Assembly (NCBI GenBank): GCA_963708985.1
Contig: CAVPUQ010000001.1
Span: 406,663-470,662 of the forward strand
Length of the DNA: 64,000 nt
Reading direction: 5' to 3'
Source of the DNA: an uncultured Actinomycetes bacterium
GTDB lineage: Bacteria > Actinomycetota > UBA4738 > HRBIN12
Part shown: piece by piece, positions 36,561 to 46,352 of the stretch
How the letters are laid out: the number at the start of each line of letters is the position of its first letter
Position numbering within the stretch: position 1 is the first letter of the stretch
Program-made: the position numbers and the translations under genes
Notes under the pieces: model-generated
The model's input: only the letters and a program-made list of their open reading frames with translations
The model's database searches: none
Told to the model about the DNA's origin: nothing

Positions 36561-36671
36561 CCCGCCCGACGCAGCGCGTCGCGGGTCCCCCGAACCACCC
36601 ATCCGGAAGTGGTGCTGGCATCACTGCCGTCGGGGGTCGCGCGTGTCAGGCTGGACGTGGAGGTTCAGGAC

Positions 36672-37046
36672 ATGCCCGTGCGTGTGCTCATCGTGGACGA
36701 CCAGGAACCGTTCCGGATGGCGGCTCGGATGGTCGTTCAGGCGACCGACGGCTTCGAGGTCGTCGGCGAGGCCGAGAGCGGCGAGGACTCGGTCGTCATG
36801 GCTCGCGACCTCGCGCCCGACCTCGTCCTCATGGACGTGAACCTGCCGGGGATCAACGGGCTCGACGCCACCCGGCAGATCCTCGCCGAGGGCAGCGGCT
36901 CGGTCGTCGTGCTCCTGCTCTCAACCTACGAGGAGGAGGAGTACGCGCCTCGCGCCGCCGAGTGCGGTGCCGCGGCGTACGTCCCGAAGGCGGTGTTCGG
37001 CCCGGATCGTCTCGAGCAGGCCTGGGCGGCCGCGATCTCGAGCTGA
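36672..37046 (+). CDS. Single-domain response regulator (receiver only)
   Basis: [35 protein letters not shown]; no output domain. GTG 36657 is an alternative start. Confidence 0.9.
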
Positions 37047-37050
37047 CCGG

Positions 37051-39174
37051 TCAGCGCACCGGGACGCGTCCGAGAACGGCTGTGCCCTGCCCGGGCTCGG
37101 AGCGCACCTCGAGCGATCCGCCCAGCGCGTCGAGCCGGTCCGCCATCCCCTGCAGGCCAGTGCCGCCCGTCGTGGTCCGGCGGTCGAACCCGACCCCGTC
37201 GTCCGACACGATGAACGTGAGTCCAGAGCCCTCGTCACGCAGGTCGATGTCGACGCGTGAGGCCTCGGCGTACTTCGTGACGTTCTGCAGCGCCTCGAGC
37301 ACGCAGAAGTAGACGGCAGCCTCGACCTCCTGGTGGTAGCGACCCACCCCGTCCGGGTGGACCTGGACGGGGGTCGTGACCTTGCGGGCCTGCGCCTGGA
37401 GCGCGGCCGTGAGGCCCTCGTCGGCGAGCAACGGAGGGTAGATGCCTCGGGCCAGGTCGCGCAGGTCCTCGAGGGTCTCGCCCGCCTGCGTCTGAAGCTG
37501 GGCGAGCACCTCGCGCGCCTTCGCCGGGTCGCGCTCGACCACTTGGTCCGCGAGGCGGAGCTTCACCGCGAGAGCGACCAGCTGCTGCTGCGCCCCGTCG
37601 TGGATGTTGCGCTCGAGCTTGCGGGCGCGCTCGTCCTGGGCGGCCACGATCCGGCGTCGGGACTCCTGGAGCTCCTCGATCAGGCGGACGTTGCGGAGCA
37701 TCAACCCCGCCTGGCCCGCGAGATCGGAGACGAGCTTCTCGCCGTCCTTCGAGAGCGGTTCTGCGGCGGGCATCGCCACGGTGAGCACGCCCAGGAGCTC
37801 GCCGCGGTCGCGCACCGGGAAGGTCCGGAGCCCGTCGATCTCGGGGACCTCGTCCGGGGCGGTCTCGATCGCGGCCACCGCCGGGGGGTGGCTCGGAGCG
37901 GAGGCCACCGGCCGGATCTCGCGGCCGACGTGGAGCCACACCCGGGCCACGTCGGCGCCGGTCGAGGCCCGTACGATCTCCGCCATCCTGGGGAGCACGT
38001 CCTCGGTCGAGTACGCGTCGCCTAGACGCTCGGAGAACTGGGCCATCGCCTCGTAGCGGGTCGCTCGCCGACCGTACACGAGTCGTCTCGCGAGCCGTTT
38101 CACCGGGCGGAACGTGAAGACGAGCATGAGGGCGAACACCGCCGCCCCGGTCACGATCCGAGCCGCGATGATCTCACCCCGCGCGGAGCCGCCCGTCCCT
38201 TCGGCTCCGATGACCGCGAGGGGCGAGAGCATCAGGCTCAGCAGGCCGAGCAGGATCACGAAGAAGATCACCAGCACGGCGTAGACGACGGTCTTCTTCA
38301 TCACCACGCCGACGTCGTAGAGGCCATACGTGAGGACGGCCGCCGCGGTGGCGACGGGGATCCCCACGAAGACCCCGAACGCGTCGACGAGGGCGGCCAG
38401 CACGACAGGGATCCACGACCAATCCGCGGCACCGGACCCGAGCGCAGCCACGATGGCGATCGCCGTGGCGACCGCCATCGCCCCGATCATCACGACGAGC
38501 AGTCGGAGGGATTGTCGTCCCTCATCGGTCGCCGACCGGAAGCGCAGCACGAGAGCTCCGAGGCCGGCGAACGCGGCTCCACCCACGAGGGCCAGTCCGA
38601 GTGCGAACGCGCTGCCGATCCCCGGGAGGCGGGCGGCCCATCCCGGCGGATCGATCCCCGTGGTGCCCGAGAACTGGTCGATGGTCCCGACCGCGCCGAG
38701 GAGCATGAGCGCGGCGCCCAGGCCCAGGACGGCGACCGCGACGCGCCACCGCCGCGATCGGAGATGACCGTCGGGGAAGAGCAGGAGGAAGGGCGGGAGC
38801 GATACGGGCAGGACGAGGAGCGAGCTGAGGGTGCCGATCCAGGCGGCCGCGGCGGCACCCGGCAGCGATCCGAGGCCTGGACCGCCGCCGAGCCCCGCTT
38901 GCGCGTACGCCATCCCGGACAGCCACAGGACGAGCGAGAGCCCCACCACGCAGAAGAGCCATCCGATCGGGTTGCGGGGGAGCCGGCGGGCGACGAGGCC
39001 ACCGAGGATCGTGTAGATCGCCGCGGGCACCCCGAGCAGGACCACGGCGGCGTCAGACGGCCGGTCGATCAGGACGATGGTCAGGGAGCCCACCCAGAGC
39101 AGGCTCATCGTGATCCACAGGCCCCCGATGAGCCGACCCACTCGCCCGATCCCCCACCGAGCCATGCGGGGCAT
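37051..39174 (-). CDS. Multi-TM sensor histidine kinase A (TM region-GAF-HisKA_3-HATPase)
   Basis: LLLFPDGHLRSRRWR, ERNIHDGAQQQLVAL, LRDLARGIYPPLL, EALQNVTKYA, DDGVGF..GTGLQGMADRL. Intact frame; start 39174 or 39165. Confidence 0.92.
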   Translation of the reverse strand: MPRMARWGIGRVGRLIGGLWITMSLLWVGSLTIVLIDRPSDAAVVLLGVPAAIYTILGGLVARRLPRNPIGWLFCVVGLSLVLWLSGMAYAQAGLGGGPGLGSLPGAAAAAWIGTLSSLLVLPVSLPPFLLLFPDGHLRSRRWRVAVAVLGLGAALMLLGAVGTIDQFSGTTGIDPPGWAARLPGIGSAFALGLALVGGAAFAGLGALVLRFRSATDEGRQSLRLLVVMIGAMAVATAIAIVAALGSGAADWSWIPVVLAALVDAFGVFVGIPVATAAAVLTYGLYDVGVVMKKTVVYAVLVIFFVILLGLLSLMLSPLAVIGAEGTGGSARGEIIAARIVTGAAVFALMLVFTFRPVKRLARRLVYGRRATRYEAMAQFSERLGDAYSTEDVLPRMAEIVRASTGADVARVWLHVGREIRPVASAPSHPPAVAAIETAPDEVPEIDGLRTFPVRDRGELLGVLTVAMPAAEPLSKDGEKLVSDLAGQAGLMLRNVRLIEELQESRRRIVAAQDERARKLERNIHDGAQQQLVALAVKLRLADQVVERDPAKAREVLAQLQTQAGETLEDLRDLARGIYPPLLADEGLTAALQAQARKVTTPVQVHPDGVGRYHQEVEAAVYFCVLEALQNVTKYAEASRVDIDLRDEGSGLTFIVSDDGVGFDRRTTTGGTGLQGMADRLDALGGSLEVRSEPGQGTAVLGRVPVR

Positions 39175-39343
39175 GGTGACACCATCGGGACCGTCGTCCA
39201 AGGGAGTCGACCTGCGGGTCTGCGGGCGGGAACCCCACCGTGACGGGTGTGCAGGCACCCCTCGACGCTTGTGGTGGCGGCCGGGTCGCTCCCCGGGCCC
39301 TCGCCTCCTACGGTGGGTCCGAGAAGAACGAGGGAGGCTCGAG

Positions 39344-39751
39344 ATGAACAAGATCCTCGTCGGAACCGACACCTCGGGATCGGCGGACCTGGCCGTGCGC
39401 GCTGCAGTCGGGCTGGCCGAGGCGACCGACGCCGAGCTCCTGGTCCTGCACGTCCGATCGCCGAACGGCGGACACGACGCGGTCGACCCGCGCAAGGCCC
39501 CCGACCCCGGCGCGTACCTGTCGGCGATGTCCGCGCGGTTCCCGGCGGTGCGACTGCGGGCTTGGAGCGAGCCGGGCGACGCCGCCGAGCGTCTGGTCGA
39601 GGTCGCGGAGACCGAGCGCGTGGACACGATCGTGGTCGGGAACAGGGGCGTGCACGGCCCGAGGTGGCGCGTCCGCGACAGCGTGCCGACGATGGTCGTG
39701 CGCCACGCCCCGTGCTCGGTGCTGATCGTGGATACGCGGGCGGCGCAGTGA
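39344..39751 (+). CDS. Universal stress protein (stand-alone USP)
   Basis: RBS GGGAGG; KILVGTDTSGSA, IVVGNRGVHG...SVPTMVVRHAPCSVLIV. Confidence 0.9.
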   Translation: MNKILVGTDTSGSADLAVRAAVGLAEATDAELLVLHVRSPNGGHDAVDPRKAPDPGAYLSAMSARFPAVRLRAWSEPGDAAERLVEVAETERVDTIVVGNRGVHGPRWRVRDSVPTMVVRHAPCSVLIVDTRAAQ

Positions 39752-39762
39752 CGCTCGGAAGG

Positions 39763-40429
39763 TCAGGCGCCGCGCTCGCGGAGGAACGCGAGCACCGCCA
39801 TCACCCGACGGTGGACCTCGGGCTCCTCGGAGAGCGCGAGCTTGTGGAACAGCGAGTTGATGTGCTTCTCGACCGCTCGCTCCGTGAGGAACAGCGACCT
39901 CGCGATGGCGGCGTTGTTCTTGCCCTGCGCCATCTGCTCGAGCACCTCGCGCTCGCGATCGGTGAGCTGCGCGAGCGGCGAGTGCGCCATCCGGTCCTTC
40001 GCCGAGACGAGCGCCTCGACGACCTTGGGATCGAGGACCGAGCCGCCGCCCGCGACCTCGCGGAGCGCCCGCACGAGTTCGCCCGACGTCGGCGACCCGC
40101 TCCTTCAGCAGGTACCCGAGCCCCGCCGCCCCGTCCTTGAGCAGCTCGTACGCGTACTCCTCCTCGGCGAACTGCGACAGGACGACGACGCCGATCTCCG
40201 GGTGCTCGCCCCGGACCTTCCTCGCCGCGTCGATGCCCTCGGTCGTGTTGGTCGGCGGCATGCGGATGTCGGTGAGCACGGCCTCGGGGCGGAGCTCGTC
40301 CACGGCCAAGAGCAGCTCCTCGAGGTTCGTCGCGGTGCCGACCAGATCGACCTCGTCCGAGTTGGTCAACAGGGCGGCCGTCCCCTCGCGAACGAGGTAG
40401 TTGTCCTCGGCGAACACGACACGGATCAC
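39763..40429 (-). CDS. NarL/LuxR-family response regulator (frameshift near 40085)
   Basis: MIRVVFAEDNYLVREG, VLTDIRMPP, GYLLKERV, LTDREREVLEQMAQGKNNAAIA...VEKHINSLFHKL. Confidence 0.93.
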
Positions 40430-40446
40430 GGCGGCATGCTACACAC

Positions 40447-40459
40447 ACCACCGGTGGGG
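40447..40459. promoter_or_regulatory. Palindromic motif ACCACCGGTGGGG, copy 1
   Basis: Perfect 10-bp palindrome CCACCGGTGG in the 38-bp divergent intergenic region; identical 13-mer at 46307-46319. Confidence 0.5.
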
Positions 40460-40467
40460 GACGCGGG

Positions 40468-41765
40468 TTGACGATCAGGGTCGTGCTGGGAGAGGACAAC
40501 GTCCTCGTGCGCGAGGGCGTCCGTGCCCTCCTGGACTCCTACGACGACATGCAGGTCGTCGGCGTGGCCGCCGACGCGCCGTCCCTGCTCTCGACCGCCG
40601 CCGAGCACGCCCCCGACGTCGTCGTGACCGACATCAAGATGCCCCCGAACTTCCAGCTCGAGGGCATCGACTGCGCCCACGCCATCCGCGCCTCGCAGCC
40701 CGGCACCGGAGTCGTGGTCCTGTCGGCCCACGACGACGAGGCGTACGCGATCGCGCTCCTCGGCCAGGGGCAGAGCGGGCTCGCGTACCTGCTGAAGGAC
40801 CGCATCGCGCAGGGCGACGAGCTCGTGCGCGCGATCCGCGAGGTCGCCGCCGGGGGCAGCGCGGTGGACCCGATGATCGCCGAGCGCCTCTCCGGCCGCC
40901 GCGAGACCGCCGAGGCGGACCGGGAGATCCTGGACATGATGGCGCAGGGCCTCGGCTACGAGCAGATGGCCGAGCGACTCGGCACGACGCAGGAGTCCGT
41001 CGACCGCCGGGTCACCGAGCTGTTCCGCCGGATGGCGATCCAGGCCGAGGGCGGCTCGGCCGCCGCGGTGGACGAGCTGAAGCGTCTGCACGCCGCGGTC
41101 GTGCAGAAGGAAACGACCGCGTCCTCGCTCCGTTCGTACGTTCCGTCGCAGGTCGCCGACCGGCTCGCGACGGGCGAGGTGGGACAGCAGGAGCTGGAGG
41201 TCACCGTGTCTGTTCAGCGACATCCGCGGCTTCTCGACGATCGCCGAGCGGCTGTCCGCCCGCCAGATCTCCGAGATCGTCGGTCGGCACCTGCTCGGCG
41301 ATGGCCGAGGTCGTGGCGGAGCACGGCGGAACGATCGACAAGTTCCAGGGCGACGCGGTGATGGCGGTCTTCGGCGCGCCGGACCCGCTGCCCGACCACG
41401 CCGAGCGCGCCCTGCGGTGCGCGATCGCGATGCAGGCTCGCCAGGCCGCGCTGAACGCCGAGGGCTGGGGGACCGACGCCATCGACGGCCTGCAGGTCGG
41501 GATCGGGGTCAACACCGGCCAGGTGATCGCGGGCGCCGTCGGTGGGGGCGGCAGGCTCGAGTACACGGTCGTCGGCGATGCCGTGAACGTCGCCTCGAGG
41601 CTGCAGTCGGAGGCCGACGGCGGCGAGATCGTGACGACCGCCTCGACGATGGCCGCCGCTCCGAGCGTCAGAGCCGAATCAGTCGGTCCGCGCGTCGTGA
41701 AGGGTCGCGAGGAGCCGGTCGAGGTGTTCCGCGTGCGCGTCGAGACCGGGGAGCGCTCGACGTGA
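40468..41765 (+). CDS. REC-LuxR-like HTH-class III adenylate cyclase fusion (frameshifts near 41210 and 41295)
   Basis: REC (VVLGEDNVLVREG, VVTDIKMPP), HTH-like DREILDMMAQGLGYEQMAERLGTT, cyclase LFSDIRGFS, IDKFQGDAVM, GIGVNTG, YTVVGDAVNVASRL. Confidence 0.9.
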
Positions 41766-43906
41766 GTGCCGCGTCGGCAGCCCGCATGCGTGCGCGGCCC
41801 GTCCGCTGGCCCTGGCTCGCGGTCATCTGGTTCATCGTCGTCGCCACCGCGGGCTTCGCGCTCGTCGTCGAGAACGGCGAGTCCGTCCTCGAGCAGGTCC
41901 CGTTCACGGTCGCGTTCGCCCTGTTCGGCGTCGTCGGAGCGCTCATCGTCAGCCGGGCGAGGAACCGGATCGGCGCCCTCCTGCTCTGGGGTTCGGCGTC
42001 GACCGCGCTCTCCTTCGTAGCGGGCGAGGCCACGACCGCGCTCGTGCGGCGTGGCACGACGACGGGACCGGTGGCCGTCGGCGCGGCAGCGTTCGCGAGC
42101 CTGGGATGGGTGATCGGGATCCTGCCCGTGTTCCTCCTGCTGCCCTTGCTCTTCCCGGACGGCCGACTCCCCTCGAGGCGTTGGCGGCCGCTCGCCTGGC
42201 TCTGCGTCGCTTTCCTCGTCCTCCTGGGGGTCGGTAGCCTGCTCACCCAACCGATCCTGACCGGATCCGTCGAGAGCGCCGGGGTCCCGAACCCGCTCTT
42301 CATCCCCTCGCTCGGCGAGATCGGGATCTCCGAAGCCTTCTTGAACGTCGGGCTCCTCGTGTTTCTCGTCGGCTCCGTGGGCTCCCTGATCGTTCGGTTC
42401 CGACGGGCTCGGGGGGTGGAGCGCCAGCAGATCAAGTGGGTCGCGGCCACCTCCGTCCTCTTGCTCGTGTCCTTCGTCCTCTCCGCTCTCGCGAGCGCCG
42501 TTGGGTTGGGTGGCTTCGTCGACGCCTTCGTCGTGGGGCCGGCGTTCGTGCTCCTCCCCGTTTCGATCGGGATCGGGGTGTTGCAGTATCGCCTCTACGA
42601 CCTCGACGTCGTCGTGAAGAAGGCGCTCATCGCAGGCACGCTCGTCGTGTCCGGGATCGCGGTGTACGGCGGCGTCGTGTGGGTCGCGGGATCGATCGCC
42701 TCGGATCGTGCCAGCTCGGTATCCCTCTTCGTGATCGCGCTCATCCTCGGGATGGCGTTCCGCCCGGTGGTCCGGTTCGCTCGGCGGGTCGCCGACCGGC
42801 TCGTGTACGGGCGCCGAGCTACCCCGTATGAGGTCTTGACCGAGTTCTCCGGCCGCGTCGGCGAGGCGTACGCGACGGAGGACGTCCTCGGGCGGATGGC
42901 GCGGATCCTGGGCGAGGGCGTCGGCGCGGAGGAGGCCCGCGTCTGGCTGCTGGTCGCCGGCGAGCTGCGGCCGGAGGGCGCCTGGCCCGCCGGCGCCGAG
43001 GCGGGTCACCCGCGCCCGGTGCGCGGCGATGCGCTCCCCGGGCTGGCCGGTGAGATGGCCGTCGAGGTGCGCGATCGCGGCGAGCTCCTCGGGGCGCTCT
43101 CGGTTCGGATGTCCGCCAACGACCCGATGACCCCGCCCAAGGAGCGGCTCGTCCGGGACCTCGCGTCGCAGGCGGGGCTGGTTCTGCGCAACGTCCGGCT
43201 CGTCGAGGAGCTCCGCGCCTCGCAGCGTCGCCTCGTGGCCGCGCAGGACGAGGAGCGTCGGCGGATCGAACGCAACATCCACGACGGCGCACAGCAGCAG
43301 CTCGTCGCGCTCGCCGTCAAGCTCCGACTCGCGCAGGGGCTCGCGTCGAAGGACCCGAGCAGGACCGAGGCCATGCTGCTGCGACCTGCAGGAGGAGACG
43401 CAGTCGGCCCTGGAGGACCTGCGCGACCTCGCTCGAGGGATCTACCCACCGCTGCTCGCCGACAAGGGCCTCGCGGCCGCGCTCGAGGCGCAGGCCCGCA
43501 AGACCCCGATCCCGGTGCGAGGTCGACGCCCGACGGCATCGGCCGCTACCCGCAGGAGGCGGAGGCGGCGGCCTACTTCTGTGTGCTCGAGGCGCTCCAG
43601 AACGTCTCGAAGTACGCGGACGCCACCAGGGCCATGGTCCGCCTCGGCCACGACGAGGGGCACCTGACCTTCGAGGTCCAGGATGACGGTGCCGGGTTCG
43701 ACGCCGCGTCGACCGGCTACGGCACGGGACTGCGAGGGATGGCGGACCGGCTCGGAGCGCTCGATGGCGAGATCGCCGTGGAGAGCGCGCCCGGACGCGG
43801 CACCACCGTGCAAGGGCGGATCCCGGTTGAGGTCGAAGAGCGGCAGGCGTCTGGGTCGGGCTCGGTGCGGGTCACGGAGGAGCGAGGGTCGGAGGCGGAG
43901 GGCTGA
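41762..43906 (+). CDS. Multi-TM sensor histidine kinase B, paralog of kinase A (compensating indels 43380-43525)
   Basis: LLFPDGRLPSRRWR, YRLYDLDVVVKK, ERNIHDGAQQQLVAL, EALQNVSKYA, DDGAGF..GTGLRGMADRL. GTGA overlap with the cyclase gene. Confidence 0.92.
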   Translation: MSAASAARMRARPVRWPWLAVIWFIVVATAGFALVVENGESVLEQVPFTVAFALFGVVGALIVSRARNRIGALLLWGSASTALSFVAGEATTALVRRGTTTGPVAVGAAAFASLGWVIGILPVFLLLPLLFPDGRLPSRRWRPLAWLCVAFLVLLGVGSLLTQPILTGSVESAGVPNPLFIPSLGEIGISEAFLNVGLLVFLVGSVGSLIVRFRRARGVERQQIKWVAATSVLLLVSFVLSALASAVGLGGFVDAFVVGPAFVLLPVSIGIGVLQYRLYDLDVVVKKALIAGTLVVSGIAVYGGVVWVAGSIASDRASSVSLFVIALILGMAFRPVVRFARRVADRLVYGRRATPYEVLTEFSGRVGEAYATEDVLGRMARILGEGVGAEEARVWLLVAGELRPEGAWPAGAEAGHPRPVRGDALPGLAGEMAVEVRDRGELLGALSVRMSANDPMTPPKERLVRDLASQAGLVLRNVRLVEELRASQRRLVAAQDEERRRIERNIHDGAQQQLVALAVKLRLAQGLASKDPSRTEAMLLRPAGGDAVGPGGPARPRSRDLPTAARRQGPRGRARGAGPQDPDPGARSTPDGIGRYPQEAEAAAYFCVLEALQNVSKYADATRAMVRLGHDEGHLTFEVQDDGAGFDAASTGYGTGLRGMADRLGALDGEIAVESAPGRGTTVQGRIPVEVEERQASGSGSVRVTEERGSEAEG

Positions 43907-44115
43907 TGGCCGGGCGCGCGCCGGCGAGGAAGAAGCGCTCCGTGTTCCGGCGCGTCGAGCGCTGGATGGTCGGCCTCGCCATGGGTGTGATGGCGTTCGT
44001 GCTCGAGCGCGTCGTGATGCGCTCGGTCCGCAAGAGGGGGAAGCGAGACCCCGCCCCCAAGCCCACGACGCTCTCGTCGAAAGGCGGGGACGTCGACCTT
44101 CCCGAGCAGCGCTAG
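43906..44115 (+). CDS. Small basic hypothetical protein (69 aa) with one hydrophobic segment
   Basis: ATG overlaps kinase B stop; RRVERWMVGLAMGVMAFVLERVV; fills the gap exactly to the convergent gene. Confidence 0.6.
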   Translation: MAGRAPARKKRSVFRRVERWMVGLAMGVMAFVLERVVMRSVRKRGKRDPAPKPTTLSSKGGDVDLPEQR

Positions 44116-46236
44116 GGCGACGGCTTCCGGTCGCGGAACAGGTCCGCGAGCAGCCCCATCGTGAACACCAGCCCGACGGCTCCGAGCGTGATCGGGATCC
44201 AGTCCGCCACCCTGGCCGAGGTCGCCGTGATCGCCGTGCCGAGCAGCGAGGCGGCCGCCACGACACCGAGGGCGAGCCGTCGGCCCGCCCGGCGCACCGT
44301 CTGTTCCAGGGAGGCCGCGCGGAAGTTGACCTCGAGCTTCTGGCCGGGGCGAGCACCGATCAGCCGCTCGACGGCCTCGACGACGCGCAGGAAGCGGACC
44401 TTCAGTCGTCTGCGACTGGTAGAAGAGCGTCTTCGGGTCGAACTTCGCGCCCATCTCCGTGATCAAGGCACGCATGAGGAACCTGCCGGCCACGTCGAAC
44501 GGGTCGAGCGTGGGGTCCAGCTGCGCGGCGGCGAGCTGCATCTGTGCCAGCGCCTTCGCCGTCAGCGTGAGCGAGGCCGGCAGCGGGACGTTGTGGCGCA
44601 GCGAGATCTCCGTCATCTCCTGCAGGACCGGTCCGAGCTGGATGTCCTTGCAGCGAAGCGCCGTGGTACTTGGCCATCAGCTCGCCGATCTCGCCCGAGA
44701 ACGCCTGCGTGTCCAGGTCGCTGCGGTCGATCGCGCCGGCCAGCATGAGCGTGACGTCGGTGAGGAACCCGACGTCCTGCTGCCAGAACGCCATGAGCAG
44801 GAGCAGCATCATGTGCTCGCGCATCTCGGGGCCGACCTCCCCGATCATGCCGAGGTCTAGGAGGAAGATCCGCTCGGTCGACGGCTGCCACATCAGGTTC
44901 CCGGGGTGCGGGTCGGCGTGGAAGAAGCCGTCGACGATGATCTGCTTGTAGAACGACTCGAGGAGCTGCCGCGCCGACTCCTTGCGCGCCGTCCCCTCGG
45001 GGGCATCGCTGATCGGGCCACCCTGCACGTCCTCCATCACGAGCAGCCGTGACGTCGAGAAGTCACCGAACACCGCCGGCACCTCGAGCCGCGAGAACTG
45101 CTCGATGACCTCGGCCATCCGTCGCATGTTGCTCGGCCTCCTGGCGGAAGTCGAGCTCGCGGTGGAGCGAGTCCGAAAGGTGCTCGAACACGGCCCCCAT
45201 GTCGATGACCTGCTTCAGGGCTGGGCGGTCGCTGACCTTCTCGGCGAAGACCTCGAGCAGCGCCAGGTCCTGCTCGATCTGCTCGCGGGCGTCGGGGCGC
45301 TGCACCTTCACGACGACCGGCTCGCCGTTCGCGAGGATCGCACGATGGACCTCGGCGATCGTGCCGGCCGCGAGCGGGCTGTGGCTCGATGTGGTCGAAC
45401 ACGTCCTCCCACGGCACGCCGAGCTCCTGCTCCATGACCTTCACCACCTGCTCCTCGGTGAGGGGAGGGACGTGATCCTGGAGCGTGGCGAGCTCCTCGA
45501 TGAACTCCGGCGGAAGCAGGTCGGGTCGCGTCGAGAGGATCTGCCCGAGCTTCGCGAACGTCGGCCCGAGCTCCTCGAGCGCCGAGCGAAGGCGCTTGGC
45601 CTGGCGCCGGCGCCCGATCGCGCCCTCCTCGTCCGGACGGCCGAACAGCTCCTTCAGCCCGTGCTTCGCGAAGACAGCCGCGATCTTCGAGCCGCGCGCC
45701 ATCAGGTGCGGCTCGGCCTCCTTCTCCAGCACCGAGCTTCGGATCACCGTCGCCGAGCGTGGATCGCGTGTCACGACGTGGCCCTCGCTCCCCGCGGTGT
45801 TCACGATGATCACCGTGCATCGCGCGTTGTGGCTGATCCGGTTCGGCACGTTGCCGAGCAGGAACTCCTTGCGCCCGGCCATCCCGGCGTTGCCGACCAC
45901 GAGCACGTCGATGTCGTGGTCCTCGGTCGCGTGCACGATCGCCATGGCCGGGTCGTCGTCGATCACGACGTGGGCCCGTCCCCGTTCGCCCGCCAGACGG
46001 ACCGACTCGGCCTGGAGCTCGTCGGCGGCGGTTCGAGCCCGGGTGGCCTCGGCCGCGCCGTACTCGGTCGTCGCCGGGTTCGTGGGCATGACGACCTGGA
46101 CCAGGTGCAGCTCGGCGCCGTAGCGCTCGGCGAACGCGCTCGCCCATCCGACCGCGCGCGTGGCGGTCTCGGAGCGGTCGGTCGCGACCATGACCCGCCC
46201 CACCCCGTTCCTGCCGACGTCCCTCACGTCCGCCAT
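44112..46236 (-). CDS. USP-ABC1/UbiB(AarF) atypical kinase fusion with two C-terminal TMs (frameshifted)
   Basis: USP (VMVATDRSETA...VVGNAGMAGRKEFLLGNVPNRISHNARCTVIIV) is in the same frame as GPTFAKLGQILSTRPDLLP; then AAGTIAEVHRA, VVVKVQRP, ELDFRQEA, GFFHADPHPGN, LLDLGM. Confidence 0.9.
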
Positions 46237-46306
46237 GGCCTCGCAGTCTGCTGGAGTTGTGGCTTCTCGGCAACGGGGCGCCCACCATGGCCGGTCGGGT
46301 GGTTGG

Positions 46307-46319
46307 ACCACCGGTGGGG
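46307..46319. promoter_or_regulatory. Palindromic motif ACCACCGGTGGGG, copy 2
   Basis: About 70 bp upstream of the USP-ABC1 ATG and about 20 bp upstream of the tRNA -10 (TACACT 46337-46342). Confidence 0.5.
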
Positions 46320-46352
46320 CGGGACACGCGGTTCGCTACACTCGCTGACGCC

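What the first reader, a model, noticed from the sequence alone, without database searches (positions are those of the whole stretch)
40468..41765. Response regulator whose LuxR-type HTH is followed by an intact adenylate cyclase
Seen: REC with phospho-Asp (TDIKMPP); an HTH alignable to the neighbouring NarL (DREILDMMAQG vs EREVLEQMAQG) but with a diverged recognition helix; a helical linker; and a cyclase with both metal Asp (FSDIRGF, GDAVM), ATP-selecting Lys (DKF), Thr at the second specificity site and N/R (NVASR). Established: these residues define class IIIb adenylyl cyclases; REC-cyclase fusions are known, but a retained HTH between the two is unusual. Inference: either a bifunctional transcription factor/cyclase or an HTH repurposed as an allosteric hinge. 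The two indels lie within or at the start of the cyclase domain, so the fusion depends on their being errors.
Basis: partly seen in the sequence, partly recalled or inferred. Interest (0 to 1): 0.8.

Follow-up and report, generated by a model that had tools for sequence, protein, structure and literature searches.

The report
NarL-type response regulator fused to cyclase
This is one gene for a two-component response regulator that keeps a worn-down NarL-type DNA-binding fold between its receiver and an adenylate cyclase; it belongs to a large, unstudied actinobacterial family, and its two frame breaks are almost certainly assembly errors.

Summary
Window 40468-41765 (+) encodes a NarL-type receiver (phospho-Asp D55), an HTH-like module, a helical linker and a class IIIb cyclase with all six catalytic residues.

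The reading frame is broken twice. Both breaks are single extra bases (T 41209, G about 41293) that are absent from all 14 relatives aligned.

The assembly is full of such breaks:
- rpoB is cut into at least five frame pieces.
- About 0.38 frame switches per kb occur genome-wide, against 0.025 per kb in short-read relatives.
- All 11 breaks that I mapped against an intact reference run in the +1 direction.

So the fusion is real. More than 6,800 database proteins match. The listed ones are intact, 421-435 aa. At least 597 GTDB species genomes hold a relative, and 15 of 25 close relatives carry the gene in one open frame.

The middle module is a true but degraded LuxR/GerE HTH. Pfam scores it 16-20 bits, below the 23.5 cut-off. 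A family profile hits the NarL DNA-binding domain at E 5.6e-6 over helices a7-a9 only.

Most likely a HisKA_3 kinase phosphorylates the receiver, which switches on cAMP synthesis, with the HTH remnant acting as a structural adapter. DNA binding is not excluded for this subfamily.

Verdict: new variant of a known kind; moderate interest.

The parts
40468..41765 (+). Whole gene: response regulator with cyclase output. TTG start, TGA stop at 41763-41765. Read in three frames because of two extra bases.
   Evidence: The read-through protein aligns without gaps to intact 421-435 aa homologues at 78-89% identity.
40474..40827 (+). Receiver (REC) domain of NarL type. Acidic pair E9/D10, phospho-acceptor D55 (40630-40632), S86, K110.
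   Evidence: Pfam Response_reg E 2e-16. NCBIfam NarL-type full-length models align over residues 3-193. These residues are invariant across the family.
40912..41040 (+). Degenerate LuxR/GerE-type HTH, helices a7-a9 (residues 149-191). Recognition helix is TTQESVDRRVTELFRRM.
   Evidence: Pfam GerE 16-20 bits, below the 23.5 cut-off. A family profile of this region hits the NarL DNA-binding domain 1JE8 at E 5.6e-6 and DosR at 0.002. AF2 places helices at 149-159, 164-171 and 175-195. pN/pS 0.44.
41041..41187 (+). Helical linker. An a10-like helix carrying the family-wide L-H-A-A-V/I motif, then a pre-catalytic segment LRSYVPSQVADRL (41128-41166) that resembles the cyclase transducer element.
   Evidence: AF2 gives helices 199-209, 218-224 and 227-234, but pLDDT is below 50 over 195-237 in the monomer. 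The segment aligns to the pre-catalytic helices of Rv1625c-type cyclases and of P0214.
41209..41209 (+). Extra base 1 (T). It shifts the frame by +1 at the first strand of the cyclase (VTV|LFSD).
   Evidence: Window-only column in the DNA alignment with 14 relatives.
41293..41293 (+). Extra base 2 (G; placement within CTGCTC is ambiguous by one base). It shifts the frame by +1 again.
   Evidence: Window-only column in the DNA alignment with 14 relatives.
41188..41735 (+). Class III (IIIb) cyclase catalytic domain. Metal Asp at 41219-41221 and 41352-41354, Lys 41340-41342, Thr 41565-41567, Asn 41586-41588, Arg 41598-41600.
   Evidence: Pfam Guanylate_cyc E 2e-27. phmmer against PDB: Cya2 1.6e-35, CyaB 3.7e-33. 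Foldseek TM 0.88 to CyaB 3R5G.
41762..43906 (+). Downstream histidine kinase (multi-pass membrane N-terminus, HisKA_3 + HATPase_c). Its GTG start overlaps the cyclase stop (GTGA). It is the probable cognate kinase.
   Evidence: Sequence. Orthologous position in L003 and L004, with Pfam HisKA_3/HATPase_c. tblastn.
39763..40429 (-). Divergent NarL-type response regulator (REC + bona fide GerE, 56.8 bits). It is a paralogue of the N-terminal two thirds of the cyclase protein and carries one +1 frame break near 40085-40137.
   Evidence: It is conserved next to the cyclase gene in relatives.

Best explanation
One gene encodes a 431-residue response regulator built from a complete NarL-type regulator with a class IIIb adenylate cyclase added to its C-terminus.

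Domain order:
- Receiver.
- a6 linker.
- LuxR-type helices a7-a9.
- A long helix in place of the a10 dimerisation helix.
- A transducer-element-like segment.
- The cyclase domain.

The two frame breaks are single-base insertion errors of an indel-rich, probably long-read-only, metagenome-assembled genome. They are not biology.

Proposed mechanism (inferred):
1. The co-transcribed membrane HisKA_3 kinase phosphorylates D55.
2. The phosphorylated receivers dimerise.
3. The HTH remnant and the helix that follows it carry that change into a parallel helical stalk.
4. The stalk aligns two cyclase domains into the active head-to-tail homodimer, which makes cAMP from ATP.

In this reading the HTH remnant serves mainly as a structural and dimerisation adapter rather than as a DNA reader.

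Shown here: the architecture, the residues, the family, the conserved gene order, and the error-prone assembly. Inferred: phosphotransfer, activation, cAMP as the product, and the adapter role.
For: The fusion is real:
- More than 6,800 database hits, and the best 120 are all intact at 421-435 aa with REC + cyclase.
- At least 597 GTDB genomes hold a relative.
- 15 of 25 relatives from genus to order carry the gene in one open frame.

The breaks are errors:
- The only two window-only bases against 14 relatives are 41209 and 41293.
- rpoB is in at least five frame pieces and genome completeness is 73.7%.
- About 1,135 frame switches without a nearby stop occur genome-wide, or 0.38/kb. Short-read loci give 0.025/kb and 'MFD' MAG loci 0.167/kb.
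- In the cassette, NarL has 1 break, this gene 2 and UbiB 4, all in the +1 direction, as are the four in rpoB.

The cyclase looks competent:
- All six catalytic residues are present.
- Lys and Thr match P. aeruginosa CyaB.

The HTH is homologous but degraded:
- The family profile hits the NarL DNA-binding domain at 5.6e-6 over a7-a9 only.
- It scores 19.6 bits, against 53-86 bits for the 20 bona fide GerE domains of the same genome.
- The positions matching NarL's base-contacting K188/V189/K192 (PMC10853779) are D/R/T here and N/A/E in the second subfamily. That subfamily's recognition helix has a mean net charge of -3.2.
- The module is still under purifying selection, pN/pS 0.44.

Operon and context:
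- The kinase start overlaps the cyclase stop.
- A HisKA_3 kinase follows the gene in relatives.
Against: - No reads could be examined, so the error reading rests on comparison alone.
- rpoC is intact, so errors are patchy.
- In this subfamily the recognition helix SVDRRVTELFRRM is a conservative version of the neighbour's AVEKHINSLFHKL. Its net charge (-2 over a7-a9) lies inside the range of true GerE domains in this genome, -3 to +4. DNA binding therefore cannot be ruled out.
- The AF2 monomer is poor over residues 195-237, and no dimer model or coordinates were available, so the adapter geometry is untested.
- No member of the family has been assayed, as far as the held literature shows.
Confidence: 0.6

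Rival explanations
1. Bifunctional regulator. In this subfamily the HTH still binds DNA, so one phosphorylation event both sets transcription (perhaps of the cassette itself) and makes cAMP. This would be analogous to the LuxR-HTH-EAL protein PdeL of E. coli.
For: - The recognition helix keeps two Arg residues and is a conservative copy of the paralogous neighbour's helix.
- The module's charge lies within the range of true GerE domains.
- The helix is invariant among 41 subfamily members and under purifying selection.
- PdeL appears among the weak profile hits (7PK5, E 0.086).
Against: - GerE scores 19.6 bits, against at least 53 bits for every true GerE domain in the genome.
- The a8 'S/T-N' motif, the backbone-contacting His and the 'KLG' turn into a10 are all lost.
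- a10, the DNA-bound dimer interface, is replaced by the stalk helix.
- The sister subfamily has an acidic recognition helix.
- The 10-bp palindrome in the divergent intergenic region is not conserved in 17 orthologous regions.
Confidence: 0.25
2. True pseudogene. The two insertions exist in the organism, and only a 297-residue REC-HTH protein with a nonsense tail is made.
For: The assembly as given has the breaks. Reads could not be checked.
Against: - The essential rpoB gene carries four breaks of the same kind.
- The genome-wide break rate is 15 times the short-read background.
- The gene shows no other decay, and every family-invariant residue is kept.
- Close relatives have it intact.
Confidence: 0.05
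3. The cyclase domain makes a product other than cAMP, or acts as a non-catalytic output.
For: No assay exists for the family. The sister subfamily has Gln instead of Lys at the purine-selecting position (MQYVGD), which shows that specificity is not fixed across the family.
Against: The window protein has the Lys/Thr pair of class IIIb adenylate cyclases, both metal Asp residues, and Asn and Arg. It aligns residue for residue with CyaB.
Confidence: 0.07

Closest known systems
Receiver-regulated class III cyclases, for example cyanobacterial CyaC (Kasahara and Ohmori 1999, PMID 10329724, listed in the references of PMC1183210; content recalled from memory)
   Same: A receiver domain lies upstream of a class III catalytic domain, and phosphotransfer controls cAMP synthesis.
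   Different: Here the receiver is of NarL type, pairs with a HisKA_3 kinase, and is separated from the cyclase by a recognisable remnant of the LuxR HTH. CyaC is a hybrid kinase with GAF and kinase modules and has no HTH.
NarL/FixJ-family response regulators (NarL, DosR; mycobacterial MctR and MadR models)
   Same: REC, the a6 linker and helices a7-a9 are homologous. NCBIfam MctR scores 1e-30 over residues 3-193, and the divergent neighbour is 43% identical.
   Different: All NCBIfam and Pfam scores are far below the cut-offs. a10 is replaced by a stalk helix, NarL's base-contact residues are changed, and a cyclase is appended.
P. aeruginosa CyaB and other class IIIb adenylate cyclases (3R5G)
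   Same: Catalytic fold (TM 0.88, 36% identity), the Lys/Thr substrate pair and all metal and transition-state residues.
   Different: CyaB is regulated by a membrane MASE2 domain, not by a receiver.
M. tuberculosis Rv0386-type proteins (cyclase + ATPase + LuxR HTH; 'CHD+LuxR' in PMC3466318)
   Same: A class III cyclase and a LuxR-type HTH sit in one actinobacterial protein.
   Different: The order is reversed (cyclase first, HTH last), there is no receiver, the proteins are large STAND-type, and the HTH is a bona fide GerE domain.
E. coli PdeL (LuxR HTH + EAL; 7PK5)
   Same: A LuxR-type HTH lies directly upstream of a second-messenger enzyme domain. This is the precedent for the bifunctional reading.
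   Different: The enzyme is a c-di-GMP phosphodiesterase, there is no receiver, and the HTH is canonical and binds DNA (recalled from memory).

Membership tests
Class III nucleotide cyclase, subclass IIIb adenylate cyclase | Cyclase homology fold | tested here: met
   Pfam PF00211 at 96.5 bits against a cut-off of 21.9. Foldseek TM 0.83-0.88 to CyaB, Cya2 and CyaC. This applies to the read-through sequence and to the closest intact homologue, P0001.
Class III nucleotide cyclase, subclass IIIb adenylate cyclase | Two metal-binding Asp residues | tested here: met
   FSDIRGF (41219-41221) and GDAVM (41352-41354). Both align to the same residues of CyaB and Cya2 and are invariant in 86 family members.
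Class III nucleotide cyclase, subclass IIIb adenylate cyclase | Adenine-selecting Lys four residues before the second metal Asp, and Thr (not Asp) at the second specificity site. The subclass definition is from Linder and Schultz 2003, recalled from memory. | tested here: met
   DKFQGD and EYTVVGD, identical in placement to CyaB's DKFVGD and DYTIIG. The sister subfamily has Gln in place of Lys.
Class III nucleotide cyclase, subclass IIIb adenylate cyclase | Transition-state Asn and Arg | tested here: met
   The NVASR motif (41586-41600) aligns to CyaB's NLASR.
Class III nucleotide cyclase, subclass IIIb adenylate cyclase | cAMP synthesis | not testable with these tools
   Needs an enzyme assay or cya complementation.
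Response regulator (receiver domain) | CheY-like fold with an acidic pocket, a phospho-acceptor Asp, a Ser/Thr and a Lys | tested here: met
   PF00072 at 60.5 bits against a cut-off of 30.2. E9/D10, D55, S86 and K110 are invariant.
Response regulator (receiver domain) | Cognate histidine kinase | tested here: met
   A HisKA_3 kinase overlaps the stop codon. The arrangement is conserved in L003, L004 and most subfamily-1 loci. Phosphotransfer itself was not tested.
NarL/FixJ (LuxR/GerE HTH) transcription factors | GerE domain above the Pfam gathering score | tested here: not met
   16.3-19.6 bits against a cut-off of 23.5. It is below the cut-off or absent in all distant members.
NarL/FixJ (LuxR/GerE HTH) transcription factors | Homology of helices a7-a9 to solved LuxR-type HTH domains | tested here: met
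   The family profile of residues 138-215 hits NarL 1JE8 at E 5.6e-6, DosR at 0.002, and LuxR-type response-regulator DNA-binding domains 4WT0/4WSZ at 0.004-0.005. The first 16 hits by E-value are all LuxR-type HTH proteins.
NarL/FixJ (LuxR/GerE HTH) transcription factors | a10 dimerisation helix that ends the protein | tested here: not met
   The profile match stops at a9. The sequence continues into a linker and the cyclase.
NarL/FixJ (LuxR/GerE HTH) transcription factors | DNA-contacting residues of the recognition helix and actual DNA binding | tested here: inconclusive
   NarL K188/V189/H190/K192 correspond to D/R/R/T here, E/K/H/N in the true NarL neighbour, and N/A/A/E in subfamily 2. 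Binding itself cannot be tested here.

The most novel reading that the evidence does not exclude
In this subfamily the protein is a true dual-output response regulator. Phosphorylation makes one polypeptide both bind an operator through its remodelled LuxR HTH and synthesise cAMP. The cAMP is then read by the USP domains encoded in the same conserved cassette (Usp and Usp-UbiB kinase). The cassette would then be a self-contained pathway from a two-component system through cAMP to an atypical kinase.
Probability: 0.15. Interest if true: 0.7.

Novelty: new variant of a known kind. Interest (0 to 1): 0.4.

Why it matters
Receiver-controlled cyclases are known, and this gene is one of thousands of database members annotated only as 'adenylate/guanylate cyclase domain-containing protein'.

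What is new is modest but concrete. The family did not swap its output domain. It kept a whole NarL-type regulator and added a cyclase behind it, and the HTH survives as a constrained, sub-threshold remnant that domain databases miss.

That makes it a clean natural case of a DNA-binding fold being reused, or dually used, inside an enzyme-output regulator. It also links HisKA_3 two-component signalling directly to cAMP in soil Actinomycetota.

Cultured carriers of the sister subfamily exist (Herbidospora cretacea, Planotetraspora thailandica, Spongisporangium articulatum), so the question can be tested at the bench.

For the scan itself, this genome carries about one frame break per 2-3 kb. Any 'broken gene' finding in it should be read as assembly error first.

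Tried and rejected
No reads or other runs could be laid on the two sites.
- A conserved operator would have supported DNA binding. The exact palindrome CCACCGGTGG occurs twice in the window (40448, 46308). With one mismatch allowed it is no more frequent than chance: 4 found, 3.99 expected. It is absent from the orthologous intergenic regions of relatives.
- The element that is conserved there is a TA(C/G)CAT box 6 nt upstream of the NarL paralogue's start. I read this as a -10 box of a leaderless transcript.
- P0214 seemed to share the HTH module in a non-receiver context. BLASTP shows that it shares only the pre-catalytic segment and the cyclase.
- Net charge of the HTH does not separate this subfamily from true GerE domains of the same genome. 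It does separate subfamily 2.
- Several 50%-cluster representatives (P0139, P0154, P0155, P0157, P0164, P0197) turned out to be frameshifted predictions themselves. I did not use them for conclusions.
- Six literature searches found no paper describing a REC-HTH-cyclase regulator. The library omits most subscription journals, so this is weak evidence of absence.
- The AF2 monomer gave no usable information on how the HTH packs against the other domains. The tool reports no coordinates or PAE, and I did not spend a second job.

Full report
**What is in the sequence**

The window has 70.6% G+C. Between 40468 and 41765 on the + strand no single frame is open. Three frames each carry a piece of one protein:
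- Frame 1, from TTG 40468 to 41208, gives 247 residues ending ...ELEVTV.
- Frame 2, 41210-41292, gives LFSDIRGFSTIAERLSARQISEIVGRHL.
- Frame 3, 41295-41765, gives SAMAEVVAEHGGTIDKFQGDAVM... down to TGA 41763-41765.

Joined, the 431-residue read-through scores as follows in Pfam:
- Response_reg, residues 6-110, E 2e-16.
- Guanylate_cyc, residues 241-416, E 2e-27.
- GerE, residues 152-191, a sub-threshold 16.3 bits against a cut-off of 23.5.

NCBIfam full-length models of NarL-type regulators (MctR 1e-30, MadR, NarL) align across residues 3-193 but far below their cut-offs.

**Is the fusion real?**

Yes.
- A search with the read-through protein found more than 6,800 proteins. The best 120 are all intact, 421-435 aa, 78-89% identical, with REC + cyclase.
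- The read-through aligns to them without a single gap, and every family-invariant residue is kept.
- A nucleotide alignment with 14 relatives shows exactly two columns in which only the window has a base: T at 41209 and G at about 41293.
- In 15 of 25 genomes from the same genus, family or order, the gene lies in one open frame next to the same divergent NarL-type gene.
They are mostly Actinomycetota MAGs (Acidimicrobiia, Nitriliruptorales, Streptosporangiaceae, Nocardioidaceae), with a few Dormibacteria or Chloroflexi bins.
- Cultured carriers include Planotetraspora thailandica and Herbidospora cretacea, and Spongisporangium articulatum by its NCBI name.

**Are the two breaks errors?**

The comparative evidence is strong.
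- The genome is 2.96 Mb in 10 contigs but only 73.7% 'complete'.
- Its rpoB is cut into at least five frame pieces, each step a +1 shift. rpoC is intact, so errors are patchy.
- I wrote a codon-position Viterbi frame tracker trained on this genome. It finds about 1,135 same-strand frame switches with no stop nearby, or 0.38 per kb.
- The same script gives 0.025 per kb on 436 kb of relatives that are not 'MFD' MAGs, which I take from their contig names to be mostly short-read assemblies. It gives 0.167 per kb on 245 kb of 'MFD' MAG loci, which I recall as Nanopore assemblies.
- Within the local cassette, tblastn with the intact proteins of a relative (L003) shows one break in the NarL neighbour, two in this gene and four in the UbiB kinase.
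- Together with the four in rpoB, all eleven breaks mapped against an intact reference run in the +1 direction.
- The downstream kinase also has an out-of-frame stretch at 43382-43517.

I put the probability that the two bases are assembly artefacts at about 0.93.

**What is the middle module?**

It is a real but degraded LuxR/GerE HTH.
- The N-terminal 194 residues are 43% identical (E 5e-53) to the divergent NarL-type neighbour. The match runs through REC, the a6 linker and helices a7-a9, with a 9-residue deletion before a7.
- A profile built only from residues 138-215 of 30 family members hits the NarL DNA-binding domain (1JE8, E 5.6e-6), DosR (0.002) and further LuxR-type domains. The first 16 hits by E-value are all LuxR-type HTH proteins. 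The match covers a7-a9 and stops there.
- AF2 on the closest intact homologue, with an 86-sequence alignment, gives helices at 149-159, 164-171 and 175-195 at pLDDT about 70-77, then a low-confidence stretch over 195-237, then a confident cyclase.
- In the window's own genome, 20 bona fide GerE domains score 53-86 bits. This one scores 19.6 and is the only outlier.
- It lacks the a8 'S/T-N' motif, the backbone-contacting His and the 'KLG' turn into a10.

NarL reads bases with K188, V189 and K192, and touches the backbone with H190 (PMC10853779). The aligned positions compare as follows:

| Protein | K188 | V189 | H190 | K192 |
|---|---|---|---|---|
| This protein | D | R | R | T |
| True NarL neighbour | E | K | H | N |
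| Second subfamily (45-49% identical) | N | A/D | A | E |

The second subfamily's recognition helix has a mean net charge of -3.2. Within the window's subfamily the helix TTQE(A/S)VDRRVTxLF is invariant.

The module is under purifying selection (pN/pS 0.44). It is weaker than REC (0.20) and about as constrained as the cyclase (0.36). pS is near saturation, so these ratios are only relative.

**The cyclase**

Foldseek and phmmer place it with P. aeruginosa CyaB (36% identity, TM 0.88), Synechocystis Cya2 and Spirulina CyaC. Both metal Asp residues, the Lys four residues before the second Asp, the Thr at the second specificity site, and the Asn and Arg all align to CyaB's. By the Linder and Schultz scheme (recalled) this is a class IIIb adenylate cyclase, and all catalytic residues sit on one chain. 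It is therefore expected to act as a homodimer.

The segment LRSYVPSQVADRL just upstream aligns to the pre-catalytic helices of Rv1625c-type cyclases and of an unrelated cyclase, P0214. It fits the 'cyclase transducer element' (Ziegler et al. 2017, recalled from memory).

**Context**

The kinase gene starts at GTG 41762 and overlaps the stop (GTGA), so the two genes are probably co-translated.

The gene order is: HisKA_3 kinase, Usp, NarL regulator (divergent), then this gene, one or two HisKA_3 kinases, a small ORF, and a Usp-UbiB kinase. This order is conserved in the subfamily's relatives.

In the other subfamilies a HisKA_3 kinase lies within 4 kb in about half of the loci. Some, including the two cultured strains in the scan, have none nearby.

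**How it most likely works**

Shown: a NarL-type receiver with an intact phosphorylation pocket, an adjacent HisKA_3 kinase, a constrained HTH remnant lacking a10, a helical stalk, and a cyclase with a complete active site.

Inferred:
1. The kinase phosphorylates D55.
2. The receivers dimerise.
3. The HTH remnant, with the a10-like helix carrying the family-wide L-H-A-A-V/I motif, passes this to a parallel stalk and transducer element.
4. Two catalytic domains are positioned for cAMP synthesis.

I give the full chain 0.6. The main rival is retained DNA binding in this subfamily, giving a dual-output regulator like PdeL. I give that 0.25, because the recognition helix is a conservative copy of the neighbour's and keeps two Arg residues.

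Against the rival:
- The a10 interface and the canonical motifs are lost.
- The sister subfamily's helix is acidic.
- No conserved operator was found. The CCACCGGTGG palindrome noted by another first-stage finding is not conserved in 17 orthologous intergenic regions.

**Comparison with what is known**

Receiver-controlled class III cyclases are known (CyaC). So are cyclase + LuxR proteins in mycobacteria (the Rv0386 type, 'CHD+LuxR' in PMC3466318) and a LuxR HTH upstream of a second-messenger enzyme (PdeL).

I found no description of REC-HTH-cyclase in the held literature, but that library is incomplete. Some JGI annotations already pair 'class 3 adenylate cyclase' with 'DNA-binding NarL/FixJ family response regulator'.

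**Verdict**

This is a real gene of an abundant, uncharacterised family: a new variant of a known kind. It is not rare and not categorically new, and in this window it is disfigured by assembly errors. Interest 0.4.

Noticed in passing
Whole genome (G000); rpoB at C2:399225-402450: The assembly is riddled with single-base frame breaks, about 0.38 per kb by my frame tracker. rpoB is in at least five pieces while rpoC is intact. All 11 breaks mapped against an intact reference are +1 shifts. Broken genes elsewhere in this genome should be treated as errors first.
   Followed up: yes
window 39763-40429 (-), 41762-43906 (+), 44124-46236 (-): Neighbouring genes are also broken. The NarL regulator has one +1 break near 40085-40137. 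The downstream kinase has an out-of-frame stretch at about 43382-43517, across the region after the H-box. The Usp-UbiB kinase has four +1 breaks near 45380, 45132, 44650 and 44403.
   Followed up: partly
Family members P0128, P0271-P0389; loci L021-L084: A second large subfamily (45-49% identical, including cultured Streptosporangiaceae) has Gln instead of the adenine-selecting Lys (MQYVGDAVM) and an acidic recognition helix (PEAVNAAIEQLF). Its nucleotide specificity may differ.
   Followed up: partly
P0126 (561 aa): One 50%-cluster representative carries a second receiver domain after the cyclase (REC-HTH remnant-cyclase-REC).
   Followed up: no
window 36600-46320; L003-L020: The cassette (HisKA_3 kinase, Usp, NarL regulator, RR-cyclase, HisKA_3 kinase, small ORF, Usp-UbiB kinase) is syntenic across 17 or more species-level genomes of this subfamily. 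That is compatible with a functional link between cAMP output and USP domains. Mycobacterial Rv1636-type USPs bind cAMP (recalled from memory).
   Followed up: partly
window 40430-40467 and the orthologous regions of L003-L020: The only conserved element in the 32-41 bp divergent intergenic region is TA(C/G)CAT, 6 nt upstream of the NarL gene's start codon on the minus strand. This suggests a leaderless transcript. The stretch upstream of the cyclase gene is variable and purine-rich.
   Followed up: partly
window 40448-40457 and 46308-46317: The perfect palindrome CCACCGGTGG occurs twice in the window but is not found at the orthologous positions in relatives. With one mismatch allowed it is no more frequent than chance (4 found, 3.99 expected).
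   Followed up: yes
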